Source: Arenicellales bacterium | GTDB lineage: Bacteria > Pseudomonadota > Gammaproteobacteria > Arenicellales > Poriferihabitantaceae | Length of the DNA stretch: 64,000 bases | NCBI GenBank assembly: GCA_965200715.1 | Contig: OZ241374.1 | Location: forward strand, 2,917,031 to 2,981,030 | Direction of reading: 5' to 3' | Shown: positions 1,147 through 21,047 of the stretch, one piece after another | How the letters are laid out: each line of letters starts with the position of its first letter | Position numbering within the stretch: position 1 is the stretch's first letter | Notes under the pieces: generated by a model | Told to the model about the DNA's origin: nothing | The model's database searches: none | What the model saw: the letters and a program-made list of their open reading frames with translations, nothing else | Program-made: the position numbers and the translations under genes

Positions 1147-1167
1147 AATTCTCTGTTTGTTGGTATA

Positions 1168-1199: not shown

Positions 1200-1214
1200 T
1201 ATCAATATAGGTTG

Positions 1215-3728: not shown

Positions 3729-3756
3729 TGTTTATTCCTCTTAAATTAAATCGGGC

Positions 3757-4755
3757 TTAGAAGTCGTAACGAATGCCAATCCAGTGCTTGACTTGGTCGT
3801 CACTGCCGGCCACATCATTGTCGGTAGATCCGCCCTCATACCAGAGACGCAATCCACCGCCCATGTTGTGATACAGGCCAGCGGCAATCTTGCTGGGTTC
3901 GGCGGTTGATCCTTCGGTTTCCGACATGGAGTAGCCAAGCCATCCCGAAGTACTGTCGGAAAAGCTCATACCCACATAGCTAGTGACATACTCCTTATCG
4001 GGCTGGGCAACCCCAGAACTGTTTTCTGATTCATGTCTGCTCCATCCCAAAGATCCCCAGAATTGACCAAGCGAAACCTTGCCGGTAATCGCTGCGCGGT
4101 TATGCTCTAATCCATGTTTAGCAGTGGTGGCCGGAATGGACTTGAATGCTCCATTTTCGCTACCTGCCATTTCAGGCATTGCGGGGGTGACGACGATCTC
4201 AGTCTGATCGTCCACATCAAAGGCGGCTGCAACCGTCACATTATCCGTTGCGGCAACGCGGACACCAATACCGCCGCCATTACCGGACAGGTTGGCACCT
4301 TCACCGCCCTCATCACCGAGACGCAAATCTGCTTCTAAGGACAGCGGGCCGACTGAGTTGGAATACTTGATGGTATTGGGAGATCGAAAAGGAGTCGGAC
4401 TACCCACCGGCCCGACCGTGTAGGTTGGATCAAGATCAACCCCGACCGAGTTGTAGAAGGCACTCCACTGGTTACCGACATCAACCCGTCCGAAACCACC
4501 GGAAATCCCGGCCGTAGCAATCCGGGTAGAGGTGATACCACCGGCACCGTCATCGGTATTGGTAGCAAACTCGTAATGACCATGAGCGGTCAGACCGTTG
4601 CCCAGATCAGAACTGGCTTTGACTCCAAACCGAGAGCCAACGCCCTGGATGTCAGCCGTTGAGTCATTCGAGCCGCCCGTGTCCTCCAGGACAATTGCGT
4701 TGTTGATACGACCGTAAACAGTCGCCTCCGCCTGGGCTCCAAGCGGGATCATCAC
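3757..4755 (-). CDS. Gram-negative porin family beta-barrel (OmpC/PorB-like); 5' start unresolved
   Basis: EATVYGRINNAIV, GSRFGVKASSDLGNGLTAHGHYEF, NTIKYSNSVGPLSLEADLRL, alternating amphipathic strands, C-terminal IGIRYDF. The ORF-track start is a GVM-internal GTG that leaves only 8 aa before the AQA|E cleavage-like site. Confidence 0.85.
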   Translation of the reverse strand: MMIPLGAQAEATVYGRINNAIVLEDTGGSNDSTADIQGVGSRFGVKASSDLGNGLTAHGHYEFATNTDDGAGGITSTRIATAGISGGFGRVDVGNQWSAFYNSVGVDLDPTYTVGPVGSPTPFRSPNTIKYSNSVGPLSLEADLRLGDEGGEGANLSGNGGGIGVRVAATDNVTVAAAFDVDDQTEIVVTPAMPEMAGSENGAFKSIPATTAKHGLEHNRAAITGKVSLGQFWGSLGWSRHESENSSGVAQPDKEYVTSYVGMSFSDSTSGWLGYSMSETEGSTAEPSKIAAGLYHNMGGGLRLWYEGGSTDNDVAGSDDQVKHWIGIRYDF

Positions 4756-4779
4756 CGCGGCAGAAACGACCTCTGTCGC
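4750..4779. repeat. Invariant 26-nt porin 5' element (reverse orientation) with palindrome GGCAGA-AACGACC-TCTGTC
   Basis: CATCACCGCGGCAGAAACGACCTCTG is the reverse complement of CAGAGGTCGTTTCTGCCGCGGTGATG, which is found in all six porins. Confidence 0.9.
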
Positions 4780-5117
4780 TATTGGAATCTATCACGATAG
4801 CGACGAGAAAAGTCCCATAAGGATTTACGAATTGAGTTGTTTTAATGTAGAATGGACCGAAATATAGCGTAGGATTTGCGATTTCGCGTGTTTGAAAAAT
4901 GGAAAATTCCTTAGCGTATGATCCTGCCCATTTGTAGAATCGACCCCCTTTAGGATGATTGTCATATATGAACAAAAGAAGAGTTCGTACGTGAAATTTT
5001 GTTTGCTCAACCAAATCACTGAAAACCAGGGAATAACTGGATTATTATTTTTTTGGGACACAGTCCAAGCCAGTGCCTTAATTAGTTTTCTTTCTACCTT
5101 TCCTTTGGAGGATATTT

Positions 5118-5471
5118 ATGACTCAATCAACTAAAAAAACCAGTAATAAAGCCACTTTGGAATATGAAAACCTTGATTTGCCTCCAGTATATGTAGATGG
5201 TGCTCAAGGGACTTTGAGCCCAAATAAGGATGTGCTTCATGTCAGTTTTTCTGAACGAATAGCAGGCTTGCCATCACTTTCCGTTAATACAGAAATAATC
5301 GAAAGCCAAGATAACAAAACTTGTCAGGCAAATTTTGGTGATTGCTTCGGTTTAGACACAGGAAATATCCACTTAATCAGGCGTGTGGAGGCTAATTTAA
5401 TTTTCAGTCGACACTCATTGGAAGGAATAATTTCTTGGCTACAACAACAACTTAATACTTTGCCGAAATAG
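5118..5471 (+). CDS. Hypothetical protein (AT-rich island)
   Basis: 117-aa ORF with GGAGGA SD 7 nt upstream. It is followed after 11 nt by the next ORF. No domain recognised. Confidence 0.55.
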   Translation: MTQSTKKTSNKATLEYENLDLPPVYVDGAQGTLSPNKDVLHVSFSERIAGLPSLSVNTEIIESQDNKTCQANFGDCFGLDTGNIHLIRRVEANLIFSRHSLEGIISWLQQQLNTLPK

Positions 5472-5482
5472 GGGACAAGTCG

Positions 5483-6055
5483 ATGATAAATATTGAATTG
5501 AATAGCAAAATTGAAAGTTCATCGAATTCTCTGGATTCGCTTGAGATGATCATTCAACCTAATGGCAACTCTGTTTCAAATTTGAATATAGAAAAATCAT
5601 CAGAAAACTGTATTCTCGAAAATAACAGTATCAATTTTTCATTTTCCCATGATCCTGATTTTTCACCTAGGACTTCATCGTTGAATACGAATAATGAGCA
5701 AAAGGCGCTGGATGATGCACTTGCAGATATTGATTCTATCGCCAGTAAACTCCACGATTACGATGTAGAAGAACCGCCTGAGCAATCCGCTATAGACAAC
5801 GCACGGGACTTGCTTCAAAAAATTTTTAGGATTTATCCAGTTAAGTATTTTATATCTCCTACGGAAAGATGCGGCGTAGCCATCTCTCCTCCAATTCGGA
5901 AAGGAGGGGCTGTTTCGTTTGAATGTGCTCCAAGTGGAGTCGTTCATTGTTTTGCTTCTATCGATGGCAATCGCCGCCGTGCAAAATATTTTCAAACAGA
6001 TGATCTTCCTGACCCATTTATGGAGAAGGCATTGAAAGATCTTGCAAAAAAGTGA
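5483..6055 (+). CDS. Hypothetical protein (AT-rich island)
   Basis: 190-aa ORF tightly coupled to 5118..5471. No domain recognised. Confidence 0.55.
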   Translation: MINIELNSKIESSSNSLDSLEMIIQPNGNSVSNLNIEKSSENCILENNSINFSFSHDPDFSPRTSSLNTNNEQKALDDALADIDSIASKLHDYDVEEPPEQSAIDNARDLLQKIFRIYPVKYFISPTERCGVAISPPIRKGGAVSFECAPSGVVHCFASIDGNRRRAKYFQTDDLPDPFMEKALKDLAKK

Positions 6056-6198
6056 ATCGTGGATAAAGTTTGCGAAGATGAGCACGTTTGGCGCGATGTT
6101 TATCATCAAAATATAGAAAAATATTTGAAAAGAACAGAACGCCAAATAAATAGTTTAGCAAAAGCATTTTTTGGAGACAGGCAGTTTCCAAAAAAAGT

Positions 6199-6507
6199 TT
6201 GTCCAGTAATTTGTATGATCTTATTTCGCTAAAACAAGCTACAGCATTTTCAGATTCTAGAGCAGGCAAACACGATCCACCCAAAACGATCAGGGGTTGG
6301 TGGAAAATGCGAGTGGCAGATCTACATGTGAATAAAATGATAGTTGAACATGCCCCCATTCATACTGAATATTGCAATAATGATTACCATGCAGAAATTA
6401 TCTTTCCAGAAGGTCATTGTGATTCGTGGGAAGATGCTGAGGTGCAATTGCTGTGCTTTATTTCTAATGGGTCATGGCAAGATATAGAGAAAATAGATGT
6501 TTCTTAA
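6199..6507 (+). CDS. Hypothetical protein
   Basis: 102-aa ORF in an AT-rich region. No clear SD and no domain. Confidence 0.3.
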   Translation: MSSNLYDLISLKQATAFSDSRAGKHDPPKTIRGWWKMRVADLHVNKMIVEHAPIHTEYCNNDYHAEIIFPEGHCDSWEDAEVQLLCFISNGSWQDIEKIDVS

Positions 6508-7202
6508 GATTATCCACAGTTTTTCTTAATTCGCTATATTCTTGACTTCTGAATTAACGCTCAAATATTCGGTTATTATTGATTGTTATCTTACTAGAAT
6601 TTGCAAGTATATCTCGGATCTAAGCAAGGCGAATTTAATTTTCTTTGTTAGCGAGTTTTTGCTCGGATTCTAGGGTTTGTTTTCTATTTTGTGCGTGATG
6701 GAGAGGTGTTGGATAGTCACAAATTCGGGTAATCGATTGTAATTGAACGTCATTTTTCTCAATTTATGGCTACAGGTAATGCCAGCATGAGCCTGATGCC
6801 CATCGGGCGCTATCGAAAATCAGTAGGTGCAGTTCGGTTTGCTGACTCATAGCCAGCGACAGATGTCCTAGCCCGAAGTACTGATCGATTTGCAGAGTTA
6901 TTTACAGGGTATAGCCGAAGATTTTAGGCATAAGGAAACGGTGTAAATAAGCATAAGAACCAAGATTGCGGTTTGCTATTTGGATAACCCAGACATTATC
7001 TAGAAACCGTTTAAGTAATCCGGCTTTGAGCACCGATATTGCTTGATAGCAAACATGATAACGATCTGTTTGTTCTGGTCGCGAAGGAATTCGAGAAACA
7101 CCAGAAAACTAGTTGGCTTATCGTATAACACAATATAAATCATCGTGAAAATCCACCTAAGTCAGTGTCTCTCCAGCGCGGAGTTATTAACACTGTTTCC
7201 AA

Positions 7203-7814
7203 TCACTGGGTTGAATCTCTTACCACATTTTCGTGAAAACGACAAAAATGCACGGATATTTTAAACAGGAACATATAAAACCCAAACTGACTTAATGTGA
7301 AAAGATTTTGCTCGCAATCTAAACAATCAAAATAGTCAACGGGTATTGTATGTATGTCATCAAAATAGGCAATATATTCGTCAAACAACTCTCCACCTTT
7401 AGGCAAATAAAAAACTGATGTCACTTCCTGTCTTCTTATACTCTCAATTTTCGACGAAATTACGTCAACTGGTAAACACTGACTTATGAGCAATTCTCTA
7501 TATCGAGATAGACTGATTAATGGGGCGAATACAATGTTTGGCGGTCGTTCTCTTTTATTGGCGATATCCATGTCGCAAGTATTCGAAAGCAAAATTCCTT
7601 TTGTGCTGATTCTTCTTGTATCTTTGAATTGAACTATTTCGAGCGCATCCCAACCGTCGCCCTGTAGTAACTCTCCCTGATGATGAGTGGTGTAATATGA
7701 GGCACTCTCGCCTTTTTGGGAGAAATCCTCAAGTGCTCTTCTAAGTCCTTCTTTTTGGTTCTGGGTCAAATAATACGGTATATGATCTCGTAACAAGTCA
7801 ACTGATACTTCCAT
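7203..7814 (-). CDS. Hypothetical protein, third gene of an AT-rich three-gene operon
   Basis: 203-aa ORF, 10 nt downstream of 7825..8172 on the same strand. No domain recognised. Confidence 0.55.
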   Translation of the reverse strand: MEVSVDLLRDHIPYYLTQNQKEGLRRALEDFSQKGESASYYTTHHQGELLQGDGWDALEIVQFKDTRRISTKGILLSNTCDMDIANKRERPPNIVFAPLISLSRYRELLISQCLPVDVISSKIESIRRQEVTSVFYLPKGGELFDEYIAYFDDIHTIPVDYFDCLDCEQNLFTLSQFGFYMFLFKISVHFCRFHENVVRDSTQ

Positions 7815-7824
7815 GTTAATTGCT

Positions 7825-8172
7825 TTATGAGCCGTATAAATCTGATAGGTTTTCGTTCAATACTTGTTCAAATTCCTTTCCTAATGGTTTCTGCCTAGAA
7901 GATAAAGTTGCATAGAAGGTAGAAACAGCTTCAACAAAATCCTCGTCACGTTTTACTAAATGAGGATTCTTGGAAGAGTAAGTTTCTAGACTTGTAGTAG
8001 AAGAGATGCCGTCATAAGTATATGAAGACTGAGATAAATTCCATTTTAAGCCTGTGGCATTTTTTTCTGATGTATCAACAGAGCTCAGATACTGACTAGC
8101 TGTGACGCCAATCAAAAAAAGGGCATTGGCCAAAGTTGCCGAGGACTGGCGGGAAAGATATTTATACGTCAT
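7825..8172 (-). CDS. Hypothetical protein, middle gene of the operon
   Basis: 115-aa ORF that overlaps the 3' end of 8162..8920 by 11 nt. Confidence 0.5.
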   Translation of the reverse strand: MTYKYLSRQSSATLANALFLIGVTASQYLSSVDTSEKNATGLKWNLSQSSYTYDGISSTTSLETYSSKNPHLVKRDEDFVEAVSTFYATLSSRQKPLGKEFEQVLNENLSDLYGS

Positions 8173-8920
8173 ATTTTGGATTCAAGGATGCAATCGTTTC
8201 CTCTTTCAGTAAATTGAAAAATAGTCTTTTATTTTCAGCATGAATAGATTCAAGGCCCTCTGAGACATATTGGGGCCAATCATCAATATCACTAGATTCT
8301 GGCATCATAAATATAGTATCTATATCAATAATAACGCCTTCTTTTACCACATTATTATTGACTATCAATTGTGCTAACGAAAGAATATTAACAATGTTGA
8401 GAAATTCTTCATGTGAAATTTCCACTTTTAATGAAAAGTCTTGACCCTCAAGTTTGTATTGACCAATGGATATTGTTGATTCAAGTAAGTCTATGTATTT
8501 CCTTGATGCATCCATTTCCAAGAGGTCGACATACTTCAGCGAGTATCTATGGATGCTCTTTACGATTCCTGCCTCATTAATTATTCCTATTATCTGTCTT
8601 ATTTTGGATCTGAATGGACTCCAACCTTGATATGGCATATTACAGGAAACGGCCGCATTTTTGTCGCCTATCAAAACATCATATCCTTCAAGCTGGAGTT
8701 TTACCAAAAAGGCAAATTGTAGGTTTGGGTCATTTTGCCTAATTATTGTGGGTATCTCGTTTGCAGGGAGTTTCTCAATATGTTTATGACCATCTAGCTT
8801 GCTATATAAAATACCTGCCAAGACATCAGATGTTGGCATATCGCTCGAAAAGCGAATCTCAAAAAGAGATTCAATAAGCGGTTCTTTTTCAAGACTTTTA
8901 GGTAATTTTCTATCTGACAT
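8162..8920 (-). CDS. Hypothetical protein, possibly TIGR04255-family
   Basis: 252-aa ORF. The N-terminal EPLIESLFEIRF resembles the conserved start of TIGR04255-family proteins. This is from memory and unverified. Confidence 0.5.
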   Translation of the reverse strand: MSDRKLPKSLEKEPLIESLFEIRFSSDMPTSDVLAGILYSKLDGHKHIEKLPANEIPTIIRQNDPNLQFAFLVKLQLEGYDVLIGDKNAAVSCNMPYQGWSPFRSKIRQIIGIINEAGIVKSIHRYSLKYVDLLEMDASRKYIDLLESTISIGQYKLEGQDFSLKVEISHEEFLNIVNILSLAQLIVNNNVVKEGVIIDIDTIFMMPESSDIDDWPQYVSEGLESIHAENKRLFFNLLKEETIASLNPKYDV

Positions 8921-9307
8921 GTTTCAATGCTCTGCTACAAACCAGTAAGTCCTAAATGACTGAGTGCAGGTTAGATTTGTGGTCTTCAATGATAGTGTCT
9001 CCGCATTGTGGGGTTGTGACTCCATCCTGAGATCCATTCTCAATCGCAGTACCTTCCCTATCTGCCGATGGATGAATTGCATCACCGCTAAGCCAGAGTC
9101 CAATACAACCTTCAGAGGATGGAGGTCATCATCTCACTCCAATATGGTTGCTAGACCGGTAATTCCGATCATAAGCGAGAACTTCATGGAATGCAATAAC
9201 AGTCTTATCTTCAACAGGGCAATTTTATGTTTAGCCTCAAATATTCAATTATAAATAAATAACACAAAAAGCTGGACTTTTGAATTTCAGTTTGTTATGC
9301 TCTCGGC

Positions 9308-11172
9308 ATGAACAGTCCAGTTAAGCCCTCGAAATCCGATCCACCGCTGCTCAATTTGCGCCTGGTGCGATACGATGAAATGGCGCAATACGATGATTTC
9401 ATGGATCAATACCATCGTCGTGGTGCCTTGAGACGGATCGGTCACGAGCTGCACTATGTGGTGGAAGATCGGGGGCAGTGGATTGCACTGATCAGTTTTT
9501 CTCCGGCCGCGCTGAAGTGTTCGGCCCGAGATCAGTGGATTGGCTTGATCTCGCAAATCCAGAACGACCGGTTGCGGTTTATCGTGAACAATTCGCGCTT
9601 CCTGATTTTGCCCGGTCATGCTGTTCCGAATCTGGGCTCGCGGATTCTGTCGACCTGCCGCAAGCGGCTTGCGAGTGACTGGATGAGGCATTTTTCCCAA
9701 CCGTTGTTATTGCTTGAGACCTTTGTTGATACGGATTTCCACGTGGGAACGATTTATCGTGCCGATAACTGGGTGTTGGCGGGAAAGACCCGAGGCTACC
9801 GGCGGGTGCATGGTGGCTATAGTCCGACTCCGACCGAGTCGGTCAAGTTGGTATTTGTGAAACCCCTGCATGCGGATGCCCAGGTGATCTTGCGAGCCCA
9901 GCCGCTTCCGGATGTGGATCAATATCGAGTGAAGAAGATGAATTTGGCAATTGAAGACTATGGTTCCCTGTACGACTATTTCCAGGGCATGAAGGATGTT
10001 CGCAGTCGCCAGGGCAGACGGCATGAACTGGCCAGCGTATTGTCCCTGATCGCTGCGGCGATGTTAAGTGGTGCGATCGGGTATAAGGGCATCTGGATCT
10101 GGTGCGATGAGTTGTCGCAGGCCAATCGTCGGCATTTCCACTGTCGAAGATGGAGAGGCAAGCGAATCACCCCTTCCATCACCTGTATTCGCAATACCAT
10201 GATCCAGGTGAATCCCGACCGACTGCAACAGCTGGTCAACCGGTTCAGCATCCAGCATTTCGGTTTGCCTTTTGAGCCGCTTGCGATTGATGGCAAGGTG
10301 CTGTGTGGTTCGAAAGGCGAGCACCATCGTCAGACCCAGGTTATGAATGTGGTGGGGCATGATAGTGGGTTTTGCTATGCGAAAAAAAAGTAGGGACGTT
10401 GCCGGTTGAGGGATCAGACGAGGAGAAGCAGTCGAACGAGATCAAGTTTTTCGCCCCGACTCTTGAGCAGATGGATATTGCCGGAAGGACGATCACGGCG
10501 GACGCGATGAATACCCAGATTGCATCGGCCAATTACATGATCGAACGCGGGGCGGATTTTCATTTTTCGGTCAAGGGCAACCAACCCGGTCTGCTCGAGG
10601 ATATCCAGGTCTGGTATGAGCAGCAAGGTCAGTTTCAGGAGCCGGATTTCGAAGAGCCGTTGGAGAAAGATCATGGGCGCATCACGCAACGCAAGATCTG
10701 GGTAACCGATCGGTTGAATGAATAGGTTGAATTCCCACATGTACAACCGGTATTTGTGATTGAGCGAAACGTCAAGGACCCCAAGGGGGAAAATCCAGAT
10801 CGTGTCGAGATCGTGTATGGCATCACCTCGCAGCATCAGGATCAGACAACCGCAGAAGAAATTCTGAAAACCAATAGAGGACATTGGTCGGTCGAGACCG
10901 CCCATCAGGTGCTGGACAATCCGCATGCCTTTGATGAGGACGGCAGCCGCATCCGCTGTGGGCACGGTCCGGAAAACATGGCCTGCATGCGACGTCTTGC
11001 CCTGACCCTGCTGCGCTATTATCAGCAGCGCAATCGTCAACCGATCACGGAACAGATCGAACGACTCAAGTACAACCCGCGACGCGTGCTTGACTATCTC
11101 CGGCTGACTGGCAACACCCGGCCCAGAAGGCGATCACCAACCGAGTGTTGGCCGCTATCGCTGGCTACCTAA
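9308..11172 (+). pseudogene. ISAs1-family (H-repeat-like) DDE transposase with N-terminal DUF4338-like domain, disrupted
   Basis: Three ORF pieces: 9308..10393, 10372..10725 and 10756..11172. N-terminal ARDQWIG..NNSRFLILP..LLLETFVD is homologous to the N-termini of the two 782-aa transposases. AIDGKVLCGS and ITADAMNTQ..FSVKGNQPGL are ISAs1 hallmarks. There is a frameshift at an A8 run (10382-10389) and an in-frame TAG at 10726. Confidence 0.75.
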
Positions 11173-11624
11173 GACAACCGACTGATATCTGCTGATTTTC
11201 GATGGCACCCGATGGGCGCCAGGTATCCGCTCGTGTCGATCTTGCCCACAGCACCGAAATCCTGGCGAAAGGATGCTCAATTCCAACGGATTAGCCGAAT
11301 ATCCGTCTAACCAACGCTCCCTGACCACATACAAATGGAAAAACAACCTCTGAAACCGAGCAAAAACGAGCGAATAAAAAAGAATAAATTTGCCTTGTTA
11401 TCCGATCTTTAACATTTTTGCGTTATCTGATCTAGGTCAAAATCCTATTTGGTCTATCTCTGGTCCATAAATATGCCCTTTTATGGCCTTTTTAGCCCCT
11501 TTTTTACGGATTTCGAGGCCTTCTAGAAAATGTAGTGACATGTAATAAGATATGGGTATTGACAGCGCTTGTAATCCACTGCTACGATTGCCTGTTCTGA
11601 AATACTGAATAGCTCCAATCGATC

Positions 11625-13469
11625 ATGTACATTCGTCAAGCCAAGACCGGAACCAGCTCAGATGGAACGGTCCACTACAGTTTCCGACTCGTCGAGAGCG
11701 TTCGAAATGGCGCACAAGTCCGACAGCTTACCTTGTTGAATCTAGGTCGTTATTTTTCAATTGAGCGGGAGTACTGGCCGCTACTCTGCCAGCGCATTGA
11801 AGAGTTGCGTAGCGGTCAGGTGCCCATTGGATATGGAGAGATCGACCCAACACTCGAAGCGGAAGCGCACCGCATTGCCAATCTTCTCAACCAGCGTCAG
11901 GGGCAGGCGGTCCCGGAACGCGTCTCGGTCGAGTCGGGACCGGACTGGCAAACCTTAGACCTCAATTCGGTCCAGGATCATGATGTGCGGACCATTGGAG
12001 GTGAATATGCGGCGCTTCAGGCGGTGCAGGAACTGGGACTGCCCGAGCGGCTGTTGGAATTGGGATTCAACCCTCGTCAGCAGCGGGTTGCCCTGGGTTT
12101 GATCATCGCCCGCATGATTGCTCCGGCATCCGACCGGCAAACGCATCACTGGCTGAGCAATATCAGTGCCACTGGGGAGTTACTCGGTCAGGACTTTGGT
12201 GCCTTGAGCGAGATGACGTTGCATCGGGTCTCGGATAAGCTGCTGGATCATCAGCAGGGCATCGAAGAGCAGGTATTTGAGCGGGCTTGCTCGCTGTTTC
12301 AGCTGCAGCCAACCTTGGCATTCTATGACTTAACCAATACCTATTTTGAAGGTTCGGCAGAGCAGATTCCCGAAGCCCAGTTTGGGCGTTCGAAAGAAAA
12401 GCGCAGTGACTGCCGGTTGCTGACCCTTGGACTGGTGGTGGATGCCAGTGGATTTGTGATGAAATCCCGCATGTTTGCCGGTAATGTTGCCGAAGTTCAG
12501 ACTCTTGAGACGATGATGGGTCAGCTTGGTGGGAAACCGGGAGCCGTTGTGGTCATGGACCGCGGCATTGCCTCGGCTTCCAACCTGGCTTGGCTGCGTG
12601 AGCAGGGCTATCAATATGTGGTGGTGTCTCGTGAGCAGACGCGGGAATTCGATTTCGAACATGCCCAGCTTGAAACCTTGACCAATCGCGCAAACCGGGA
12701 AGTACAGTATTACCAGGAGTTGGTGGAGCATCAGGAAAACGGGGAGACTTGGCAGGAATCCTATGTGCGTTGCTACTCGGAGGCGCGAGCTGACAAGGAA
12801 CAGTCACTGCTGAGGCATCATCAAAAGAACTATGAAGAACAGCTCACGCAACTCAATCATTCACTGGGTAAGCCCAAAGCCCGCAATACCATCGCCGTGA
12901 TTCAGCAACGTCTTGGTCGTCTGCACAAATCTCATTCCCGAGTTGCCCGGCATTATCAGCTGAATCTGATCACTACCGATGACGATACCCGGGTGAGTCG
13001 GGTCGACTGGCAGTTTGACCCAAAATCCGGCACCATGATGACCCATCCCGGCGTCTATGCCTTGCGCAGTAACATCCTCAACTGGGATGGGGAGACGCTC
13101 TGGAGGACCTATCATACCCTGACCGAAGTGGAGTCGGTGTTTCGTGCTCTGAAATCCGAACTGGGCATGCGACCGGTGTATCACCAGACCACTGAGCGCT
13201 GTTGTTCCCATCTATTGATCGCGGTACTGGCGTATCAGGCGGTGTGTGTGTTACGCACCCGCATGAAGGCGCAGGGCCATCATGACAGCTGGGGCATGAT
13301 TCGTGAAACTCTCAGCACCATCTGCAGAACCACAACCACCTTCCAGCGTCGGGATGGCCGCACCCTACATTTGCGAAAAACCGCCATGCCGGATGCCATC
13401 CAGTCCACGTTCTATCAGGCAATGGGATTGAAAACCCCACCTCGTAGACTGCAAAAAACCGTCGTCTAA
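11625..13469 (+). CDS. IS1634-like (IS4 superfamily) transposase
   Basis: 614-aa ORF starting MYIRQAKTGTSSDGTVHYSFRLVES, with YDLTNTYFEG and SKEKRSDCRLLTLGLVVD, all typical of IS1634-group transposases. GC is higher than in the flanks. The IS ends were not resolved (roughly 11.4-13.6 kb). Confidence 0.85.
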   Translation: MYIRQAKTGTSSDGTVHYSFRLVESVRNGAQVRQLTLLNLGRYFSIEREYWPLLCQRIEELRSGQVPIGYGEIDPTLEAEAHRIANLLNQRQGQAVPERVSVESGPDWQTLDLNSVQDHDVRTIGGEYAALQAVQELGLPERLLELGFNPRQQRVALGLIIARMIAPASDRQTHHWLSNISATGELLGQDFGALSEMTLHRVSDKLLDHQQGIEEQVFERACSLFQLQPTLAFYDLTNTYFEGSAEQIPEAQFGRSKEKRSDCRLLTLGLVVDASGFVMKSRMFAGNVAEVQTLETMMGQLGGKPGAVVVMDRGIASASNLAWLREQGYQYVVVSREQTREFDFEHAQLETLTNRANREVQYYQELVEHQENGETWQESYVRCYSEARADKEQSLLRHHQKNYEEQLTQLNHSLGKPKARNTIAVIQQRLGRLHKSHSRVARHYQLNLITTDDDTRVSRVDWQFDPKSGTMMTHPGVYALRSNILNWDGETLWRTYHTLTEVESVFRALKSELGMRPVYHQTTERCCSHLLIAVLAYQAVCVLRTRMKAQGHHDSWGMIRETLSTICRTTTTFQRRDGRTLHLRKTAMPDAIQSTFYQAMGLKTPPRRLQKTVV

Positions 13470-13679
13470 GTCAGACTCAACCTCCATTCATCCACCGAAA
13501 ATCGGTGGATGAATGCACTTGTAGTGCCACTCGATTTTTTTAATTGCAAATTATCAATAGGTTGGAACACTACATGTTAAACTTCGGTTATCTTCAATGA
13601 TAGAACTGAAATACCTTCCGATCGGCAATCATGTGGTTGTTGAGTTTTCTACGGAGGTAATGATTTCACGGCAGAGGTC

Positions 13680-13700
13680 GTTTCTGCCGCAAGCGGGTTT
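13680..13700. repeat. Orphan copy of the palindromic element (no porin attached)
   Basis: GGCAGAGGTCGTTTCTGCCGC is identical over 21 nt to the porin-linked copies. It then continues into the X flank instead of GGTGATG. Confidence 0.85.
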
Positions 13701-13815
13701 TGAAGGGGATTAAACTAATAGATAATCGTATTGTTGCAGACCAGTCCGTGTGATACAGAGTGGGCTGCAGATGTGGAGTTCAAGAACCTGATAACTGGAT
13801 TTAGGGCTATAGGGC
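13701..13815. repeat. X flank module (about 115 nt)
   Basis: AAGCGGGTTTTGAAGGGGATTAAAC....GATGTGGAGTTCAAGAACCTGATAACTGGATTTAG. It recurs inverted at 25050-25149 and 42230-42377, and as a short stub at 33786-33830. Confidence 0.75.
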
Positions 13816-13882
13816 TAGCGAGAATTTCCGTATAAAAATAACTCAGAGGACTCAAGAACTAGTCTATTGTGCAACGTGGCAT

Positions 13883-14410
13883 TTAACACAGACTTACGTA
13901 ATTTGGCCCTAAGTATTCTTCTATCTTTTCACCTTTGAGAGGCACCTCAGTGCCAGCAATTTCTGCATGCGATATGTTTTCAGAAAGTGCAGTATCGTAC
14001 ACGGCAATTGCCCGCATTCCATGATGATTAATTTCTCGGATAGTCTTAACGGAAATCTCAATAGAACCACAGTTTTTCTTTTTGTTATTTCCCTCTACTA
14101 ATTTAGTTGCCCGTAAGTTATGAGATTGCTGTGAAGTATACCCCTTTCGATCGGTAGACATGCCGTTTGTTATTCTTTGTTCAAAAAATGTGGGCTCTAT
14201 ACAACCATCAATTGACAAATAATTCTCAGAAGTAACAACTGAAAGAAGTGTTTCATGGTCATTTACAGGGCCGGGTGAGTAATCGCTTACTGAAACAAGC
14301 TCACATTCACAGCAGGGATGCTTTTTTCCTAGATCGTTCCAAAAATTTCGGCCTAACTTATTACGATTTTGAAAAAATTCTCTACATTTTGTTTCTTTAT
14401 TCTCGGTCAT
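13883..14410 (-). CDS. Hypothetical protein (module gene 2)
   Basis: 175-aa ORF that overlaps the upstream gene's 3' end by 14 nt. AT-rich. No domain recognised. Confidence 0.55.
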   Translation of the reverse strand: MTENKETKCREFFQNRNKLGRNFWNDLGKKHPCCECELVSVSDYSPGPVNDHETLLSVVTSENYLSIDGCIEPTFFEQRITNGMSTDRKGYTSQQSHNLRATKLVEGNNKKKNCGSIEISVKTIREINHHGMRAIAVYDTALSENISHAEIAGTEVPLKGEKIEEYLGPNYVSLC

Positions 14411-14867
14411 TTTGTGCCAGGAAGTTCGAAAGTACTTTCCAAACTTGACTCGTATCAGAGTTTACTACTGTTTCAAAATCTTCTTCAATCAACTGAATTT
14501 CATCACTTTCATAGTCACAGCACATTGATAATTTTCTATTTCCATTAAAATTTATTTCTGCATATCCTGCAAAATTATACCAATACAATACAACTTCTCC
14601 ATCTGGACTGGGCGCAGCACTAGTTGGTTCTTTTCCAAAAAAGCGACTCCTAAATTTATTCAAAAAATTTAACGATTGATAAATTGCTGATGATGGAATT
14701 TCCTTTGCACCATCTCCGTCCCAATTTTTTCCATAGGAAAAAAATTCTTGAATTCGTGCGTCAATCTTAGATTTTCGACCGTGTTCATCATTTGACAATA
14801 AATACGCATCTCGCATTGCATTAGAAAGCCGATCAACGCTAGCGTTCAGTTTTGAATTATCGTTCAT
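14397..14867 (-). CDS. Hypothetical protein (module gene 1) with shared leader and N-terminus
   Basis: 156-aa ORF with GGAGG SD. The first 20 codons (MNDNSKLNASVDRLSNAMRD) and about 170 nt of leader are homologous to 42399..42625. The rest is unrelated. Confidence 0.6.
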   Translation of the reverse strand: MNDNSKLNASVDRLSNAMRDAYLLSNDEHGRKSKIDARIQEFFSYGKNWDGDGAKEIPSSAIYQSLNFLNKFRSRFFGKEPTSAAPSPDGEVVLYWYNFAGYAEINFNGNRKLSMCCDYESDEIQLIEEDFETVVNSDTSQVWKVLSNFLAQNDRE

Positions 14868-15038
14868 ATCATTACCTCCATTTGTAGTCAGTATAGCGCG
14901 TCATACTGCTGAGATTTGCATGAAGAATAACGCGATAAAATACACTAATCATTTATATATTACCATTTTTTCTGGTATTTTTCATCATAACTGAACCGTA
15001 TGAATTATAAGAAGAAATAAGATGAAAATCCTTAGCGA
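14868..15038. promoter_or_regulatory. S flank module: conserved divergent leader between 14867(-) and the porin element
   Basis: Homologous to 42399..42565 (inverted). It contains a TATACT -10-like box and a GGAGG SD for the minus-strand gene. It also has ATGAAAATCC (15022) facing the porin, but in the +1 frame relative to it. Confidence 0.55.
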
Positions 15039-15064
15039 CAGAGGTCGTTTCTGCCGCGGTGATG
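15039..15064. repeat. Invariant 26-nt porin 5' element
   Basis: CAGAGGTCGTTTCTGCCGCGGTGATG, with the left arm as GACAGA. Confidence 0.9.
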
Positions 15065-15997
15065 TTGCCTATCGGGGCACAGGCGGATGTGTCCATTTAC
15101 GGGCGCATAACGAACGGAATTAAGTACGTTGATCCGGCGGAACCTGGTGCCGATTCAACGACCGATGTCCATAGCTATGGTTCACGATTTGGCTTTAAGG
15201 CCAATTCCGATCTGGGTAACGGCATGACTGCAATTGGTCATTTCGAGTTCCAAGCCAGTACCGACAATACAGGTGCCAACGCTGACGGGCTGGGGAATAT
15301 GAAAACCCGGCTTGGATATGTCGGGGTTGAAGGCGGATTCGGGAAAGTCACAATTGGCAACCAATCCGCGGCGTTTTATAACAATGTTCACTTTGATCGC
15401 AGTTTCTGGAACGGCGGACACGGAGGCTATCCGGGTAGCCGCTCTTCCAATACGATTAAGTATTCCAATGCCGTAGGGCCGTTAAGCTTTCAAGCCGACT
15501 TAAGAGTCGATGCTGCAGATGATGGAGCATATGAAGCAAATACCGAAGGTTTAGGCAAAGGCAATGGTGGAGCTTTGGGTTTACAAGCCGCATTATCCGA
15601 CAACCTGACTTTGGGATTTGGTTTTGACACTCAAGACCAGGCAGATATGACCGATGGCACGGAAACCGATGTTTTTGGCATGTCCGGGCTAGCTACCTTT
15701 GGCCAATTTGATGTTTCGCTAGCCTATGCAAACAAAGAAGTGTCTGGTGAAGAAGATACCCAGCTCATGCAGTTATGGGCCAGTGCAAGCCTAACCGATC
15801 AAACTCTTGCGCGGGTTGGATACGGGCAGGAAGATCAGGACGAAAGCGAAGCAACGCCAAGCACTCTGACCGCAGTATTGATTCACAATCTTGGAGGCGG
15901 TTTTCGAGTTTGGTATGAAGGCAATGCCACAGATGACGATGTAGCTGATATGGATACCAAAGTAACCCATGAATTTGGCTTGCGGTTTGACTTCTAA
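15059..15997 (+). CDS. Gram-negative porin family beta-barrel; 5' start unresolved
   Basis: DVSIYGRITNGIKY, GSRFGFKANSDLGNGMTAIGHFEF, NTIKYSNAVGPLSFQADLRV, C-terminal FGLRFDF. The upstream in-frame codons run into TGA without any ATG, GTG or TTG. Confidence 0.85.
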   Translation: MMLPIGAQADVSIYGRITNGIKYVDPAEPGADSTTDVHSYGSRFGFKANSDLGNGMTAIGHFEFQASTDNTGANADGLGNMKTRLGYVGVEGGFGKVTIGNQSAAFYNNVHFDRSFWNGGHGGYPGSRSSNTIKYSNAVGPLSFQADLRVDAADDGAYEANTEGLGKGNGGALGLQAALSDNLTLGFGFDTQDQADMTDGTETDVFGMSGLATFGQFDVSLAYANKEVSGEEDTQLMQLWASASLTDQTLARVGYGQEDQDESEATPSTLTAVLIHNLGGGFRVWYEGNATDDDVADMDTKVTHEFGLRFDF

Positions 15998-16026
15998 CCC
16001 CATATTGATTTAGAGGAAATTAAACA

Positions 16027-17223
16027 ATGAAACAAAATATTTTTATAGCGGCCCTATTGGCCGGTATGCTGGCACTCGCGGGTTGTGGGGGCGGAAGTAG
16101 TTCAAACAACAGCGGCGGTAATGATGACAAGACGCCACCTCCGCCACCACCGCCAACTACCACGAAAACCGCGGGCGTTCCAAATAATCTAGTAGTCCGA
16201 GGCGGTACGGCCGGACTATCGTTTAACCTTGCTACCGGTGAACTTCGGTTTATTGAAGGTTATTGGTTTAGATGTACAGGTGGAACCTGTGCCGGATCTG
16301 TGGCCGCTGGCGCACAGGTTGGCACAGTTTCTTACACTGGAACAGGGACTCTTGAGATTCTTACAAGCAACCCAACTCTGGCGGATTCAAGTACTGGTAA
16401 TATAGATCAGCCAACCGAATCTACCGATCCATTGAGTAATGATGTATTGCTTAAAGCGCTTCGAGGCACAGGTAGAGTTGCCACTGACAATACAGTTTGG
16501 AATGTCGGAGAAGGTGCTGGAACACGGCCCACTAACGGCACCACATTGCCATTTACCCCTTTAGATGGTTCGCGAATAGATCTAACGATTAGTGCGGCCG
16601 GAAGTTCCAACGACGCTTATTTTGGTCATTGGGTAAAGAGCACGGCAGACCTTACCAGCTCAGGAGATCAAGATACTCTTGTAAATCGGAACCTTGGTGA
16701 TCGAGGAACTGTATGGGGCGGGGCAATGCCTTATGGGAAAAAGCCTGACACTTCCCTAGGAACGGCCTCTTACGATGAAGATGATGCAGTATTGCTTTAT
16801 TTCAGTGGCAACGGAAGAACATGGACGAACGCTACTGGAAACCTTACTTTTAATGCCAATTTCGAAACAGGCATGGTAGGCGGAAATATCGTTGTAGTTC
16901 CCGGAGGTGCTACTGGACTTGTAGCGGCAACCGACAACATTGATCTTATGGCTACCATGATCGGAAATGATGGTAAGTTTTCTGGCTCTGCCAGCTTTAC
17001 CAACTCTAATGTTAGGCGTGATTCTGGTAGTTGGAACGGAGGGTTTTTTGGTCCTACAACAACAGTTACTGGAACACCGCCGGCAGAAGCTCATGCACCG
17101 CCAGATTTTGTAGCGGGTGCGTTTAGTGTTTCAAGGCCAGCGATCGGAACATCTACTACAGTTAGTGCAACAGCACAAAACCAGTTGCACATTCGCGGTG
17201 CATTTGGAGCAGACGACGGATAA
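16027..17223 (+). CDS. Surface lipoprotein with TbpB-like C-terminal region
   Basis: MKQNIFIAALLAGMLALAGCGGGSS lipobox, a PPPPPPP linker, C-terminal GGFFGP..AGAFSV..IRGAFGA. Starts 29 nt after the porin stop. Confidence 0.8.
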   Translation: MKQNIFIAALLAGMLALAGCGGGSSSNNSGGNDDKTPPPPPPPTTTKTAGVPNNLVVRGGTAGLSFNLATGELRFIEGYWFRCTGGTCAGSVAAGAQVGTVSYTGTGTLEILTSNPTLADSSTGNIDQPTESTDPLSNDVLLKALRGTGRVATDNTVWNVGEGAGTRPTNGTTLPFTPLDGSRIDLTISAAGSSNDAYFGHWVKSTADLTSSGDQDTLVNRNLGDRGTVWGGAMPYGKKPDTSLGTASYDEDDAVLLYFSGNGRTWTNATGNLTFNANFETGMVGGNIVVVPGGATGLVAATDNIDLMATMIGNDGKFSGSASFTNSNVRRDSGSWNGGFFGPTTTVTGTPPAEAHAPPDFVAGAFSVSRPAIGTSTTVSATAQNQLHIRGAFGADDG

Positions 17224-17234
17224 CTAACCAACCA

Positions 17235-17262
17235 AACCGGGGCGTAACAACCCCGGTTTTTT
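17235..17262 (+). terminator. Rho-independent terminator (conserved family)
   Basis: AACCGGGGCGTAACAACCCCGG followed by T6. Confidence 0.85.
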
Positions 17263-17335
17263 CTATACCGAAACCCCAAACCCATACGGCGGATCGGTTT
17301 GATCCCGTCAAGCAACTATCCCATAAGAAGAAGAA

Positions 17336-20971: not shown

Positions 20972-21047
20972 TATTGATTCCCCCTTAAAGGTTCTAGGAA
21001 TGCCCAGCTTTTCATGCTGGTTCCGGTTTCAAACTGATAGAAAAAAA

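What the first reader, a model, noticed from the sequence alone, without database searches (positions are those of the whole stretch)
4750..15064. Head-to-head porin pairs bracket every accessory island, each bounded by inverted copies of the 26-nt element
The six porins form three divergent pairs: 4755(-)/15059(+), 23383(-)/25146(+) and 33789(-)/54902(+). All non-cassette DNA in the window lies between the 5' elements of a pair.
- Island 1, 4780-15038: AT-rich orphan genes, the ISAs1-like pseudogene, an IS1634-like element and a 2-gene module.
- Island 2, 23414-25149: the Panacea-domain pair.
- Island 3, 33786-54881: HigBA, AbiE, IS elements, the ATPase and the nested transposon.

The convergent 3' ends of the cassettes meet almost directly (18557-18880, 31050-31226, 61800-61890). 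Each island is therefore flanked by perfect inverted 26-bp repeats. Two readings fit. The element could be an integration hot spot. Alternatively, the islands could be invertible or exchangeable segments that decide which porin cassette receives an upstream module.
Basis: partly seen in the sequence, partly recalled or inferred. Interest (0 to 1): 0.7.

Follow-up and report, generated by a model that had tools for sequence, protein, structure and literature searches.

The report
Switchable archive of silent porin operons
This stretch of a sponge-symbiont genome stores at least six outer-membrane porin operons that have no start codon, and each begins at an identical 26-base recombination site, which probably lets the cell swap which porin is joined to a single expression site elsewhere and so change its surface.

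Summary
There are six perfect copies of CAGAGGTCGTTTCTGCCGCGGTGATG, in three head-to-head pairs around three accessory islands.

- **Location.** The element is not upstream DNA. It lies in frame inside the signal-peptide coding region of each Porin_4 gene.
- **Silent cassettes.** All six porins (36-80% identical to each other) lack a start codon and the MKKSL n-region.
- **Site anatomy.** The site has a variable left arm (GGCAGA), a 7-bp spacer (GGTCGTT) and an invariant right arm (TCTGCCGCGGTGATG). This is the asymmetric layout of shufflon sfx sites.
- **Expression site.** Relatives (Candidatus Poriferihabitans, Arenicellales) carry an expression site with promoter, ATG and MKKSLVA, the same spacer and the same right arm. 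One was found in the single complete genome checked. The window has none.
- **Spacer covariation.** A second species keeps both arms, but its spacer is changed in the silent sites and the expression site alike.
- **Exchange at the element.** In other assemblies, islands 98-99.8% identical to those here abut different porins. Porins 97-100% identical to those here abut different flanks. The switch falls at the element.

Best reading: a multi-site inversion system for varying porins and surface lipoproteins. The islands are passenger DNA. No recombinase was identified. Homologous recombination at the short tract remains a rival.

The parts
4750..4775 (-). Recombination site 1, in the por1 signal-peptide coding region (left arm GACAGA, spacer GGTCGTT, right arm TCTGCCGCGGTGATG)
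13672..13690 (+). Partial seventh site. FlankA left arm, spacer and 8 nt of the right arm, followed by an inverted U4-like flank instead of a porin.
15039..15064 (+). Recombination site 2 (por2). The flank at 15022-15038, ATGAAAATCCTTAGCGA, is a decayed, frame-shifted relic of the expression-site start ATGAAAAAATCCTTAGTGG.
23378..23403 (-). Recombination site 3 (por3)
25150..25175 (+). Recombination site 4 (por4)
33760..33785 (-). Recombination site 5 (por5)
54882..54907 (+). Recombination site 6 (por6)
42376..42398 (-). Diverged site relative with U-type flanks on both sides (GCGACGGA|GGTAGTC|TCTGCCAC). Its spacer differs at 2 of 7 positions, so it is probably inactive.
   Evidence: repeats I15 and I20
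1..4749 (-). Silent cassette 1: por1 (3757-4755), an 837-aa lipoprotein (1215-3728) and a lipoprotein related to the 406-aa lipoprotein at 17336-18556, which starts near 1170 on the minus strand and runs off the left edge of the window
15065..18556 (+). Silent cassette 2: por2 and two lipoprotein genes (16027-17223, weak sub-threshold TbpB-like match; 17336-18556)
19162..23377 (-). Silent cassette 3: por3, a 451-aa lipoprotein, and a lipoprotein gene starting at 20972 that a G12 tract puts out of frame
25176..31049 (+). Silent cassette 4: por4 and three lipoprotein genes. The gene at 27891-29709 has a TbpB_B_D/FHBP_C domain. The genes starting at 27891 and 29830 are frame-shifted.
31227..33759 (-). 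Silent cassette 5: por5 and a 507-aa lipoprotein
54908..61236 (+). Silent cassette 6: por6, a lipoprotein gene (starts 55949) interrupted by a Tn5-like IS (about 56072-58640), and a 481-aa lipoprotein with a weak, sub-threshold TbpB-like match
61891..64000 (-). 3' part of a further minus-strand cassette that runs off the window (406-aa lipoprotein, 94% identical in DNA to 17335-18600)
   Evidence: I1
4776..13671 (.). Island 1 proper: AT-rich orphan genes including a TIGR04255-family protein, an ISAs1-like pseudogene and an IS1634-like element. Passenger DNA between head-to-head sites.
   Evidence: 98-99.8% identical in L003, L006, L007 and L008
13691..15038 (.). Mini-island or module of two orphan genes on the minus strand, bounded by direct copies of the site
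23404..25149 (.). Island 2: a SocA/Panacea-domain gene with a 137-aa partner
33786..54881 (.). Island 3: HTH_3 gene (HigA-like), DUF6088 with split AbiEii, an IS, an AAA ATPase, a two-gene module, a TniA/TniB-like transposon interrupted by a recombinase trio (46781-50552), and a Tn5-like IS

Best explanation
The window is part of a large surface-variation locus of a sponge-symbiont gammaproteobacterium close to Candidatus Poriferihabitans.

**Cassettes.** Each cassette is an operon-sized unit: a porin gene cut off at about codon 7 of its signal peptide, followed by one to three lipoprotein genes, one of which has a clear TbpB/fHbp-type barrel domain and three more weak matches. No cassette has a promoter or start codon, so all six are inferred to be silent.

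**Site.** Each cassette begins with an asymmetric recombination site. It has a variable left arm (consensus GGCAGA), a 7-bp spacer (GGTCGTT) and an invariant right arm (TCTGCCGCGGTGATG).

**Expression site.** An expression site elsewhere in the chromosome (one was found in the single complete relative genome checked) supplies the promoter, the ribosome-binding site and ATG-MKKSLVA. It has its own left arm (GGCTGC) and the same spacer and right arm.

**Mechanism (inferred).** A site-specific recombinase exchanges strands in the spacer between sites in inverted orientation. It is most likely a tyrosine recombinase working as Rci does in a shufflon, and it is not encoded in this window. Each exchange inverts the DNA in between, fuses a different porin operon in frame to the expression site, and silences the previous one. 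Exchanges between two silent sites shuffle the archive.

**Islands.** The alternating - + - + orientation needed for inversion forces the head-to-head and tail-to-tail layout. The head-to-head gaps are untranscribed passenger DNA in which toxin-antitoxin genes, a few weak defence-like matches, IS elements and transposons have accumulated. These gaps are carried along and flipped.

**Shown:** the sites, the missing starts, the expression site in relatives, spacer covariation, and partner exchange at the element.

**Inferred:** the recombinase class, inversion as the elementary step, and the function (evasion of phage or of host recognition).
For: 1. There are six exact 26-mers against 0 expected. 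They sit in porins that are only 36-80% identical to each other. Invariance has sharp edges: variation starts at the base before and the base after the element.
2. All six reading frames are closed by a stop 15-48 nt upstream, and none has an ATG. Only por4 and por5 have a GTG, which would give MAEVVSAAVM with no basic n-region and no Shine-Dalgarno sequence. A sigma-70 scan covering four of the six flanks (por2-por5) finds no promoter aimed at those porins.
3. The expression site is absent from the window. In relatives it reads AT-rich promoter, TTGAGGAAA, then ATGAAAAAATCCTTAGTGGCTGCGGTCGTTTCTGCCGCGGTGATG, giving MKKSLVAAVVSAAVMLPLGAQA (L002). The same promoter occurs in L004, L005, L010 and L011. 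The MKKSLVA-coding 20-mer occurs once in the 3.37-Mb chromosome OZ244855.1. That chromosome also carries at least four N-terminally truncated porin paralogues.
4. GGCAGA-N7-TCTGCC matches 7 times against 0.11 expected and folds as a 7-8-bp stem with a 7-nt loop. In species 2 the arms are unchanged and the spacer is GGCAGTG in the silent sites and the expression site alike. In one genome of that species the expression and silent sites share only 15 identical bases.
5. Partner exchange was seen at three unique, kilobase-long flanks.
   - U1 (island 1, 98.4% identical) is joined to por3 (99.4%) in three assemblies. The clean switch falls inside a 37-nt interval that contains the element.
   - FlankA is joined to por6, to two other porins or to the module in different assemblies.
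   - U5 is joined to por5 here and to another porin in L003, beside island DNA that is 99.4% identical.
   - Homology to the por1 and por2 orthologues starts exactly at the first base of the element.
6. In all six islands whose two ends could be seen, the bracket stays head to head. These are three in the window, plus L006/L007, L013 and the island in ctg8886.
7. In ctg8886 a 9.8-kb block running from the expression site to a silent site appears on both sides of a roughly 5-kb island, inverted and 99.8% identical. This is what an assembler produces when an island is present in both orientations.
8. The layout of variable left arm, 7-bp core and conserved right arm matches R64 sfx sites, where that asymmetry restricts Rci to inversions (PMC11852207).
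Against: - No dedicated recombinase is encoded in the window. The only tyrosine recombinases are a trio inside a nested transposon, and their inverted repeats (TAATGCCGAGTAA motifs) are unrelated to the site.
- The one candidate found in a conspecific array is P0127, a Xer-like recombinase. It has no detectable orthologue in the second species, although that species shares the site arms.
- The expression site of this particular genome was not seen.
- No reads were available, so switching within one population is inferred only from differences between assemblies and from one odd contig.
- The 17 nt just 3' of the element assort independently of both the flank and the porin body. A crossover confined to the spacer does not explain this.
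- Other homology breakpoints fall at the roughly 85-nt conserved lipoprotein signal sequences (window 3661, 20899 and 56016). Homologous recombination therefore also reshapes the cassettes.
- The direct-repeat partial site at 13672 does not fit a system that makes inversions only.
Confidence: 0.65

Rival explanations
1. General (RecA-dependent) homologous recombination or gene conversion acts between paralogous cassettes. The 26-nt tract is simply the longest stretch of perfect identity, kept uniform by repeated conversion. No dedicated recombinase is involved.
For: - No recombinase is linked to the array in the window.
- A second class of breakpoints falls at the 83-90-nt conserved lipoprotein signal sequences (D1/D2).
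- The 17 nt after the element form a mosaic that looks like short-patch conversion.
Against: - The identity tract is only 26 nt here. Between the expression and silent sites of species 2 it is only 15-18 nt. To my knowledge this is at or below the minimum length for efficient RecA-mediated exchange.
- Invariance has sharp edges rather than a gradient.
- The tract has dyad-symmetric arms around a 7-bp spacer.
- The arms are conserved between species while the spacer changes in step in the expression and silent sites.
- Exchange between two silent sites is reciprocal in type, which does not fit one-way conversion into an expression site.
Confidence: 0.2
2. The element is mainly an attachment site at which mobile modules integrate. 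The islands are its products, and the porins are incidental targets.
For: - The 1.37-kb module at 13691-15038 is bounded by direct copies of the site. It is absent from the flankA junction in L003, L006, L007 and L014.
- All eight islands examined across two species lie at porin 5' ends.
Against: - Islands 1 and 3 are near-identical in other strains while their porin partner changes. That is exchange, not insertion.
- No island carries an integrase with matching sites. The islands are mixtures of IS elements and transposons with their own termini.
- The module configuration occurs at 89% identity in another genome, so it is old and stable.
- The partial site is equally well explained as a scar from the loss of a convergent cassette pair.
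- This reading does not explain why every porin lacks its start, or why an expression site shares the spacer.
Confidence: 0.08
3. The 26 nt are conserved only for signal-peptide or translation function, and the synteny differences between assemblies are unrelated rearrangements or assembly errors.
For: - The element encodes part of the hydrophobic core of the signal peptide.
- Some of the related contigs are low-coverage assemblies (6-16x).
Against: - Neighbouring signal-peptide codons vary freely, including synonymous changes.
- The genes lack start codons, so selection on a signal peptide could not act on them.
- At the three unique flanks, and in the por1 and por2 orthologues, the change of partner falls at the element, in short-read and long-read assemblies from five other samples and one NCBI MAG.
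Confidence: 0.03

Closest known systems
Dichelobacter nodosus Omp1 multiple site-specific inversion system (Moses et al. 1995, as summarised in PMC4196234)
   Same: [quoted passage not shown] Site-specific inversion has been proposed as the source of its antigenic variation.
   Different: - That system has four linked genes in a small locus. This one has at least six operon-sized cassettes (porin plus lipoproteins) spread over more than 64 kb, with kilobase-scale accessory islands between them.
- From memory, not checked here, the Omp1 crossover sites were likened to those of Din-family serine invertases.
- The site here has a 7-bp spacer and a tyrosine-recombinase-like layout.
Mycoplasma Vpma / Vsp / Vsa loci (Xer1, Mbr and HvsR tyrosine recombinases)
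   Same: - A family of surface-protein genes shares one promoter.
- All genes carry identical short recombination sites at their 5' ends.
- A tyrosine recombinase inverts DNA so that a different gene lies behind the unique promoter, and the sites are unchanged by recombination (PMC2268961).
   Different: - In the vpma and vsp loci the sites lie in the 5' untranslated region. Here the site is inside the coding sequence, so the switch creates an in-frame protein fusion.
- In Mycoplasma the recombinase gene adjoins the locus. No recombinase was found here.
- Those loci are about 10 kb with no large islands.
R64-type shufflon (Rci acting on sfx sites)
   Same: - The site is asymmetric: a variable left arm, a 7-bp core, and conservation confined to the core and right arm.
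- Many sites occur in both orientations.
- Recombination inside coding sequence swaps the variable part of a protein onto a constant N-terminal part (PMC11852207).
   Different: - The shufflon varies the C-terminus of the PilV adhesin on a plasmid, within about 2 kb.
- Here whole chromosomal operons are swapped onto 7 codons of a signal peptide.
- No Rci-family gene was seen, and similarity of the site sequence to sfx was not tested.
Silent-cassette gene-conversion systems (Neisseria pilE/pilS, Borrelia vlsE, Anaplasma msp2), from my own knowledge
   Same: An archive of promoterless, 5'-truncated copies, with one expression site.
   Different: - Those systems copy segments one way into the expression site through longer homology.
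- Here whole cassettes change partners reciprocally, including between silent sites.
- The exchange occurs at a 15-26-nt site with recombinase-site anatomy.

Membership tests
Multi-site inversion (shufflon-like) surface-variation system | Several paralogous surface-protein genes or cassettes in one locus | tested here: met
   Six Porin_4 genes, each followed by lipoprotein genes. The porins are 36-80% identical to each other.
Multi-site inversion (shufflon-like) surface-variation system | An identical short crossover site at the 5' end of every copy, present in both orientations | tested here: met
   Six exact 26-mers in the order - + - + - +. The same site occurs in nine related loci.
Multi-site inversion (shufflon-like) surface-variation system | One expression site with promoter and 5' end, all other copies silent | tested here: inconclusive
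   All six copies lack a start codon and the n-region. An expression site with the same spacer exists in relatives and occurs once in OZ244855.1. It is not in this window, and the rest of this genome could not be read.
Multi-site inversion (shufflon-like) surface-variation system | The same flank is joined to different copies, with the breakpoint in the site | tested here: met
   The U1, flankA and U5 flanks each have two to five partners across assemblies. One switch is mapped to a 37-nt interval containing the element.
Multi-site inversion (shufflon-like) surface-variation system | Inversion isomers within one clonal population | not testable with these tools
   No reads were available. The only indirect hints are the palindromic contig ctg8886 and short-read contigs that end just past the element.
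Multi-site inversion (shufflon-like) surface-variation system | A dedicated site-specific recombinase | tested here: inconclusive
   The window has none apart from a transposon-borne recombinase trio with unrelated repeats. P0127 lies 2.1 kb from a silent site in a conspecific contig, but it is not conserved in species 2.
R64-type shufflon (Rci / sfx) | Asymmetric site: variable left arm, 7-bp core, conserved right arm | tested here: met
   Left arms are GGCAGA, GACAGA, TGCAGA, AGCAGA or GGCTGC. The core GGTCGTT and the right arm TCTGCCGCGGTGATG are invariant. The sfx definition is taken from PMC11852207.
R64-type shufflon (Rci / sfx) | An Rci-family recombinase with the extra C-terminal domain, encoded next to the segments | tested here: not met
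   No such gene lies in the window or in the 10-kb flanks of the related loci.
Hin/Gin/Din serine-invertase system | A 26-bp site made of two 12-bp half-sites around a 2-bp crossover, and a resolvase-domain invertase gene | tested here: not met
   The dyad is 6-8-bp arms around a 7-nt centre of odd length. No Resolvase-domain protein appeared among the 64 ORFs of 100 aa or more that were scanned, namely all large cassette and island ORFs plus the main shadow ORFs.
Integron | An IntI integrase with attI and a Pc promoter, and cassettes each ending in a folded attC | tested here: not met
   There is no integron integrase (every match is far below the cut-off). The cassettes are multi-gene operons in alternating orientation, not a one-directional array.
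Gene-conversion silent-cassette system (pilS / vls type) | One-way transfer from silent donors into the expression site through extended homology | tested here: not met
   Exchange of flanks between two silent sites is observed. Identity shared between the expression and silent sites can be as short as 15 nt.

The most novel reading that the evidence does not exclude
The site belongs to a previously undescribed recombinase system that does two jobs. It switches whole porin and surface-lipoprotein operons onto a single expression site. It also captures, excises and moves small gene modules and islands carrying toxin-antitoxin genes and possible defence genes. This would tie variation of phage-receptor or host-recognition surfaces to turnover of accessory islands in an obligate sponge symbiont. 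The flank families conserved across species would be accessory binding sites for this machinery.
Probability: 0.2. Interest if true: 0.8.

Novelty: new variant of a known kind. Interest (0 to 1): 0.62.

Why it matters
- **New host context.** Programmed surface variation by DNA inversion is known mainly from pathogens and plasmids. I found no paper describing it in sponge symbionts.
- **Size of the investment.** At least 64 kb, about 2% of a roughly 3-Mb genome, is devoted to switchable porin and surface-lipoprotein operons. This implies strong, fluctuating selection on the cell surface, for example from phage or from recognition and phagocytosis by the sponge.
- **Testable with existing data.** Long reads already in public archives could be used to count junction isomers.
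- **Annotation.** It explains why gene callers report many porins with truncated N-termini in these MAGs.
- **Assembly.** It warns that synteny around such loci is unstable and that assemblies break at them.
- **Tool potential.** The site is a compact sfx-like sequence that tolerates being translated, which may interest people building recombinase tools.

Tried and rejected
- **Exact-match scans.** The 26-mer gave 0 hits in genome contigs. The 22-nt core and an arm-N7-arm pattern each gave 0 hits in JGI metagenomes. The close relatives are all in ENA or NCBI assemblies that could be reached only through protein look-ups.
- **Failed look-ups.** Look-ups of a window lipoprotein and of P0029, P0056 and P0033 found nothing on record. 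The 2.99-Mb conspecific genome therefore could not be read, and neither its expression site nor its full set of sites could be counted.
- **ATG at 15022.** I first read this as a phase-variable start (A4 tract) or as a separate 32-aa ORF. It is better explained as a decayed copy of the expression-site start with two A's missing.
- **Recombinase trio (46883-50433).** Rejected as the porin recombinase. It is bounded by its own 119-nt inverted repeats, which are unrelated to the site, and it interrupts a transposase gene.
- **Island orphan proteins.** Pfam, NCBIfam and PADLOC scans found no recombinase. The only matches were TIGR04255, two weak defence-like hits and one weak DUF6431 hit.
- **P0127.** This Xer-like recombinase from a conspecific island was considered, but it is not conserved in the second species.
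- **RNA genes.** There is no tRNA and no Rfam family in the window, so the islands are not tRNA-targeted elements.
- **Shared module family.** The small two-gene modules at different island ends show no protein similarity to one another.
- **U6-type flank.** This roughly 50-nt flank occurs at several loci with different upstream DNA. I did not count its different partners as evidence of exchange.

Full report
**Observation**

The 26-mer CAGAGGTCGTTTCTGCCGCGGTGATG occurs exactly six times, against 0 in shuffled sequence. The copies lie at 4750-4775(-), 15039-15064(+), 23378-23403(-), 25150-25175(+), 33760-33785(-) and 54882-54907(+). Each copy sits at the 5' end of a gene that scores above the Pfam gathering threshold for Porin_4.

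The six porins form three head-to-head pairs.
- Island 1 has AT-rich orphan genes including a TIGR04255-family protein, an ISAs1-like pseudogene and an IS1634-like element.
- Island 2 has a SocA/Panacea pair.
- Island 3 has an HTH_3 gene beside which a relative carries HigB, DUF6088 with a split AbiEii, an IS, an AAA ATPase, and a TniA/TniB-like transposon interrupted by three tandem tyrosine recombinases.

Island G+C (0.35-0.44, or 0.55-0.61) differs from that of the cassettes, about 0.48-0.52.

Two details need correcting. A Tn5-like IS with its own inverted repeats lies inside the first lipoprotein gene of the por6 cassette, so not all non-cassette DNA lies between 5' elements. Island 1 also holds a seventh, partial site at 13672-13690.

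**What the element is**

The element is coding sequence, not upstream DNA. In every copy it lies in frame and encodes ..(A/T)-E-V-V-S-A-A-V-M.., followed by (L/I)P(L/I)G(A/V)QA and the mature porin.

The porins are only 36-80% identical in protein. Yet the 26 nt are invariant, and variation begins at the very next base on each side.

None of the six genes has a start:
- The porin frame is closed by a stop codon 15-48 nt upstream of the element.
- No in-frame ATG is present.
- Only por4 and por5 have a GTG. It would give MAEVVSAAVM, which has no basic n-region and no Shine-Dalgarno sequence.
- A simple sigma-70 scan covering four of the six flanks (por2-por5) finds no promoter pointing into those porins.
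- The ATG at 15022 is one base out of frame. Its context, ATGAAAA--TCCTTAGCGACAGAG, is a decayed copy of the true start described below.

**The expression site**

Homologues from related metagenome assemblies fall into two classes. Many have the same truncated N-termini. A few begin MKKSLVAA(A/V)VSAAVM.

Contig L002 (ENA ERZ25067984) shows the full arrangement. An AT-rich promoter region and TTGAGGAAAAACTA precede ATGAAAAAATCCTTAGTGGCTGCGGTCGTTTCTGCCGCGGTGATG. This encodes a normal Sec signal peptide, MKKSLVAAVVSAAVMLPLGAQA. It shares the last 22 nt of the element with the silent copies.

The same promoter and start occur in L004, L005 and L011, and in L010. L010 is OZ244855.1, a 3.37-Mb chromosome labelled Candidatus Poriferihabitans sp. 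(Arenicellales). In that chromosome the MKKSLVA-coding 20-mer occurs once. At least four porin paralogues on the same contig have truncated N-termini.

Neither the start nor the promoter motif is in the window. The six cassettes here are therefore best read as a silent archive.

**Anatomy of the site**

The element contains GGCAGA-N7-TCTGCC, which matches 7 times against 0.11 expected. It folds as a 7-8-bp stem around a 7-nt loop.

| Part | Sequence | Behaviour |
|---|---|---|
| Left arm | GGCAGA, GACAGA, TGCAGA or AGCAGA in silent sites; GGCTGC in the expression site | Varies and stays with the upstream flank |
| Spacer | GGTCGTT | Invariant |
| Right arm | TCTGCCGCGGTGATG | Invariant and stays with the porin |

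In a second species (L004, L005, L010, L011) both arms are unchanged. The spacer is GGCAGTG in the silent sites and the expression site alike. In contig ctg8886 the expression and silent sites share only 15 identical bases.

Conserved arms with a spacer that changes in step in all partner sites of a genome is the pattern expected of a tyrosine-recombinase overlap region. A variable left arm, a 7-bp core and a conserved right arm is the published description of shufflon sfx sites. There the asymmetry is thought to restrict Rci to inversions (PMC11852207).

**Evidence that exchange happens at the site**

- In L006 (ERZ23500216), L007 (NCBI GCA_026709805.1) and L008 (ERZ27276890), the left end of island 1 is 98.4% identical to window 9214-4776. 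There it is joined to por3 (99.4% identical to 23403-20899), not to por1.
- A three-way alignment places that switch in a 37-nt interval containing the element, with no indel.
- The right-hand flank of island 1 (flankA, 13588-13671) is joined to the start of por6 in L006 and to por6 in L014. It is joined to another porin in L007 and to yet another in L003. In the window it is joined to the partial site.
- The por5-side flank of island 3 is joined to a different porin in L003. The adjoining 9.9 kb of island is 99.4% identical.
- Orthologues of por1 (98.7%, L012) and por2 (96.8%, L001) carry other flanks, and their homology to the window starts exactly at the first base of the element.
- A por3-like porin (83%) sits at the expression site in L002.
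- In all six islands whose two ends are visible, the bracket remains head to head, as inversions would preserve.
- In ctg8886 (194x coverage) a 9.8-kb block from the expression site to the next silent site appears on both sides of a roughly 5-kb island, inverted and 99.8% identical. An assembler would produce this by walking through an island that is present in both orientations.

I did not count the partners of the U6-type flank. That roughly 50-nt sequence is repeated at loci with different upstream DNA.

**Mechanism proposed**

A site-specific recombinase, probably a tyrosine recombinase acting as Rci does, exchanges strands in the 7-bp spacer between sites in inverted orientation. An exchange between the expression site and a silent site inverts the DNA in between. 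It fuses a new porin operon in frame to MKKSLVA and the promoter, and silences the previous one. Exchanges between two silent sites shuffle the archive.

The alternating orientation needed for inversion makes the head-to-head and tail-to-tail layout inevitable. The head-to-head gaps are untranscribed and dispensable, so IS elements, toxin-antitoxin genes, a few weak defence-like matches and transposons accumulate there and are carried along.

The cassettes also carry lipoprotein genes. One has a clear TbpB_B_D/FHBP_C domain and three more give weak, sub-threshold TbpB- or HpuA-like matches. A switch would therefore change several surface antigens at once. Whether genes beyond the first hairpin terminator are co-transcribed is not known.

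The selective agent, phage or recognition by the sponge host, is my speculation.

**What does not fit, or is open**

1. No recombinase was identified.
   - The trio at 46883-50433 has its own unrelated inverted repeats and interrupts a transposase gene.
   - No resolvase or other recombinase domain appeared among the 64 ORFs of 100 aa or more that were scanned.
   - P0127 is a Xer-like recombinase that lies 2.1 kb from a silent site in a conspecific contig, and an identical copy is on the 2.99-Mb genome. No orthologue was detected in the second species.
2. The 17 nt after the element assort independently of both flank and porin body. Other homology breaks fall at the roughly 85-nt conserved lipoprotein signal sequences (D1/D2). 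Homologous recombination or short-patch conversion therefore also acts here. It remains the main rival explanation for the element itself, at 0.2.
3. The partial site at 13672 has an inverted U-type flank on its right. It lies in direct orientation to the por2 site, so it bounds a 1.37-kb two-gene module. The same configuration occurs at 89% identity in L013. A diverged, unsplit version lies at 42376-42398. It could instead be a scar from loss of a convergent cassette pair.
4. Within-population switching could not be tested, because no reads were available.

**Comparison with known systems**

The logic matches three known kinds of system:
- multi-site inversion antigenic variation in Mycoplasma, with one promoter, identical 5' sites and the Xer1 recombinase (PMC2268961);
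- the inversion model for the Dichelobacter nodosus Omp1 outer-membrane protein family (PMC4196234 citing Moses 1995);
- the R64 shufflon (PMC11852207).

It differs in four ways. The cassettes are whole operons. The site lies inside a signal peptide, so the product is an in-frame fusion. The array spans more than 64 kb with large passenger islands. No linked recombinase is evident.

I found no paper describing this system in sponge symbionts. I file it as a new variant of a known kind.

**Verdict**

| Question | Answer |
|---|---|
| Observation | Confirmed |
Exchange at the element is real, but the islands are passengers, not regulatory modules. |
| Confidence in a site-specific multi-inversion switch | 0.65 |
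| Interest | 0.62 |

Noticed in passing
window 20897-20908: A run of 12 G (in gene orientation) lies immediately after the lipobox cysteine of the lipoprotein gene that starts at 20972(-), and puts the gene out of frame. L006 has G7 at the same place. It could be a slipped-strand phase-variation tract or a homopolymer sequencing error.
   Followed up: partly
window 27891-27995 and 29830-31049: Two more lipoprotein genes in the por4 cassette are frame-shifted shortly after their lipobox. AbiEii in island 3 is also split (36692-37641). This could be decay of silent copies or long-read errors.
   Followed up: partly
window 3657-3746, 20900-20989, 22368-22457, 32679-32768, 16019-16101, 26253-26335, 55941-56023: The lipoprotein genes share 83-90-nt conserved signal-sequence regions (up to 98% identical). 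High-identity homology to related contigs ends within a few bases of the inner end of these repeats (window 3661 against L012, 20899 against L006, 56016 against L013). They form a second class of recombination joints that makes the cassettes mosaic.
   Followed up: partly
17 nt 3' of each element, e.g. window 15065-15081 and 54908-54924: The segment just after the element comes in several versions (ttgcccatcggggcaca, atcccgcttggag.., attccgcttggagcaca, ttgccgcttggagcaca). These assort independently of the upstream flank and the porin body across assemblies.
   Followed up: partly
window 46781-50552: Three tandem tyrosine recombinase genes are bounded by 119-nt inverted repeats built from TAATGCCGAGTAA motifs. 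The unit is inserted into the rve transposase gene of a TniA/TniB-like transposon (fragments at 45989-46786 and 50570-51082). It looks like a 'recombinase in trio' element nested in a transposon.
   Followed up: partly
window 9308-10393, 51776-54124, 56183-58531: Three transposase genes (one ISAs1-like, two Tn5-like) carry an N-terminal domain that matches the Druantia DruA family in Pfam.
   Followed up: no
window 17234-17266, 27781-27813, 21044-21077, 31182-31215, 63523-63556 and others: Nearly the same hairpin, AAACCGGGGCGTAACAACCCCGGTTTTTT, follows almost every lipoprotein gene on both strands. It is a repeated, terminator-like element inside and between cassettes.
   Followed up: no
window 18603-18861 and 61594-61852: A 259-nt sequence (95% identical, inverted) recurs at two convergent cassette junctions, and also in L002, L003 and L013. 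Its nature is unknown.
   Followed up: no
window 4776-4850 and 23404-23470; L011 about 19457-19495: The upstream flanks fall into families that are conserved even between species: a U1/U3 type with a CTATCGTGATAG palindrome, a flankA type (aatgatttcNcGGCAGA), and a U4/U5/U6 type that resembles the expression-site 5' UTR with the Shine-Dalgarno sequence and ATG deleted. They may be accessory binding sites or relics of duplicated expression sites.
   Followed up: partly
L004/L005 (ENA ERZ25070844 ctg8886, contig positions about 81.5-91.2 kb and 96.4-106.2 kb): A 9.8-kb block from the expression site to the next silent site is present twice, inverted and 99.8% identical, on either side of a roughly 5-kb island, and the contig ends inside the second copy. 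This is likely an assembly signature of an island present in both orientations.
   Followed up: partly
L013 18401-19387: A 328-aa Xer-like tyrosine recombinase (P0127) lies next to ArdC and DUF6429 genes, 2.1 kb from a silent porin site in a conspecific contig. An identical copy is on the 2.99-Mb genome. No orthologue was seen in the second species.
   Followed up: partly
window 33863-33994, 35868-35999, 44059-44190; 35706-36003 and 44055-44352: Island 3 contains several copies of a 130-300-nt repeat (96-98% identical, in both orientations). They are probably IS or MITE ends.
   Followed up: no
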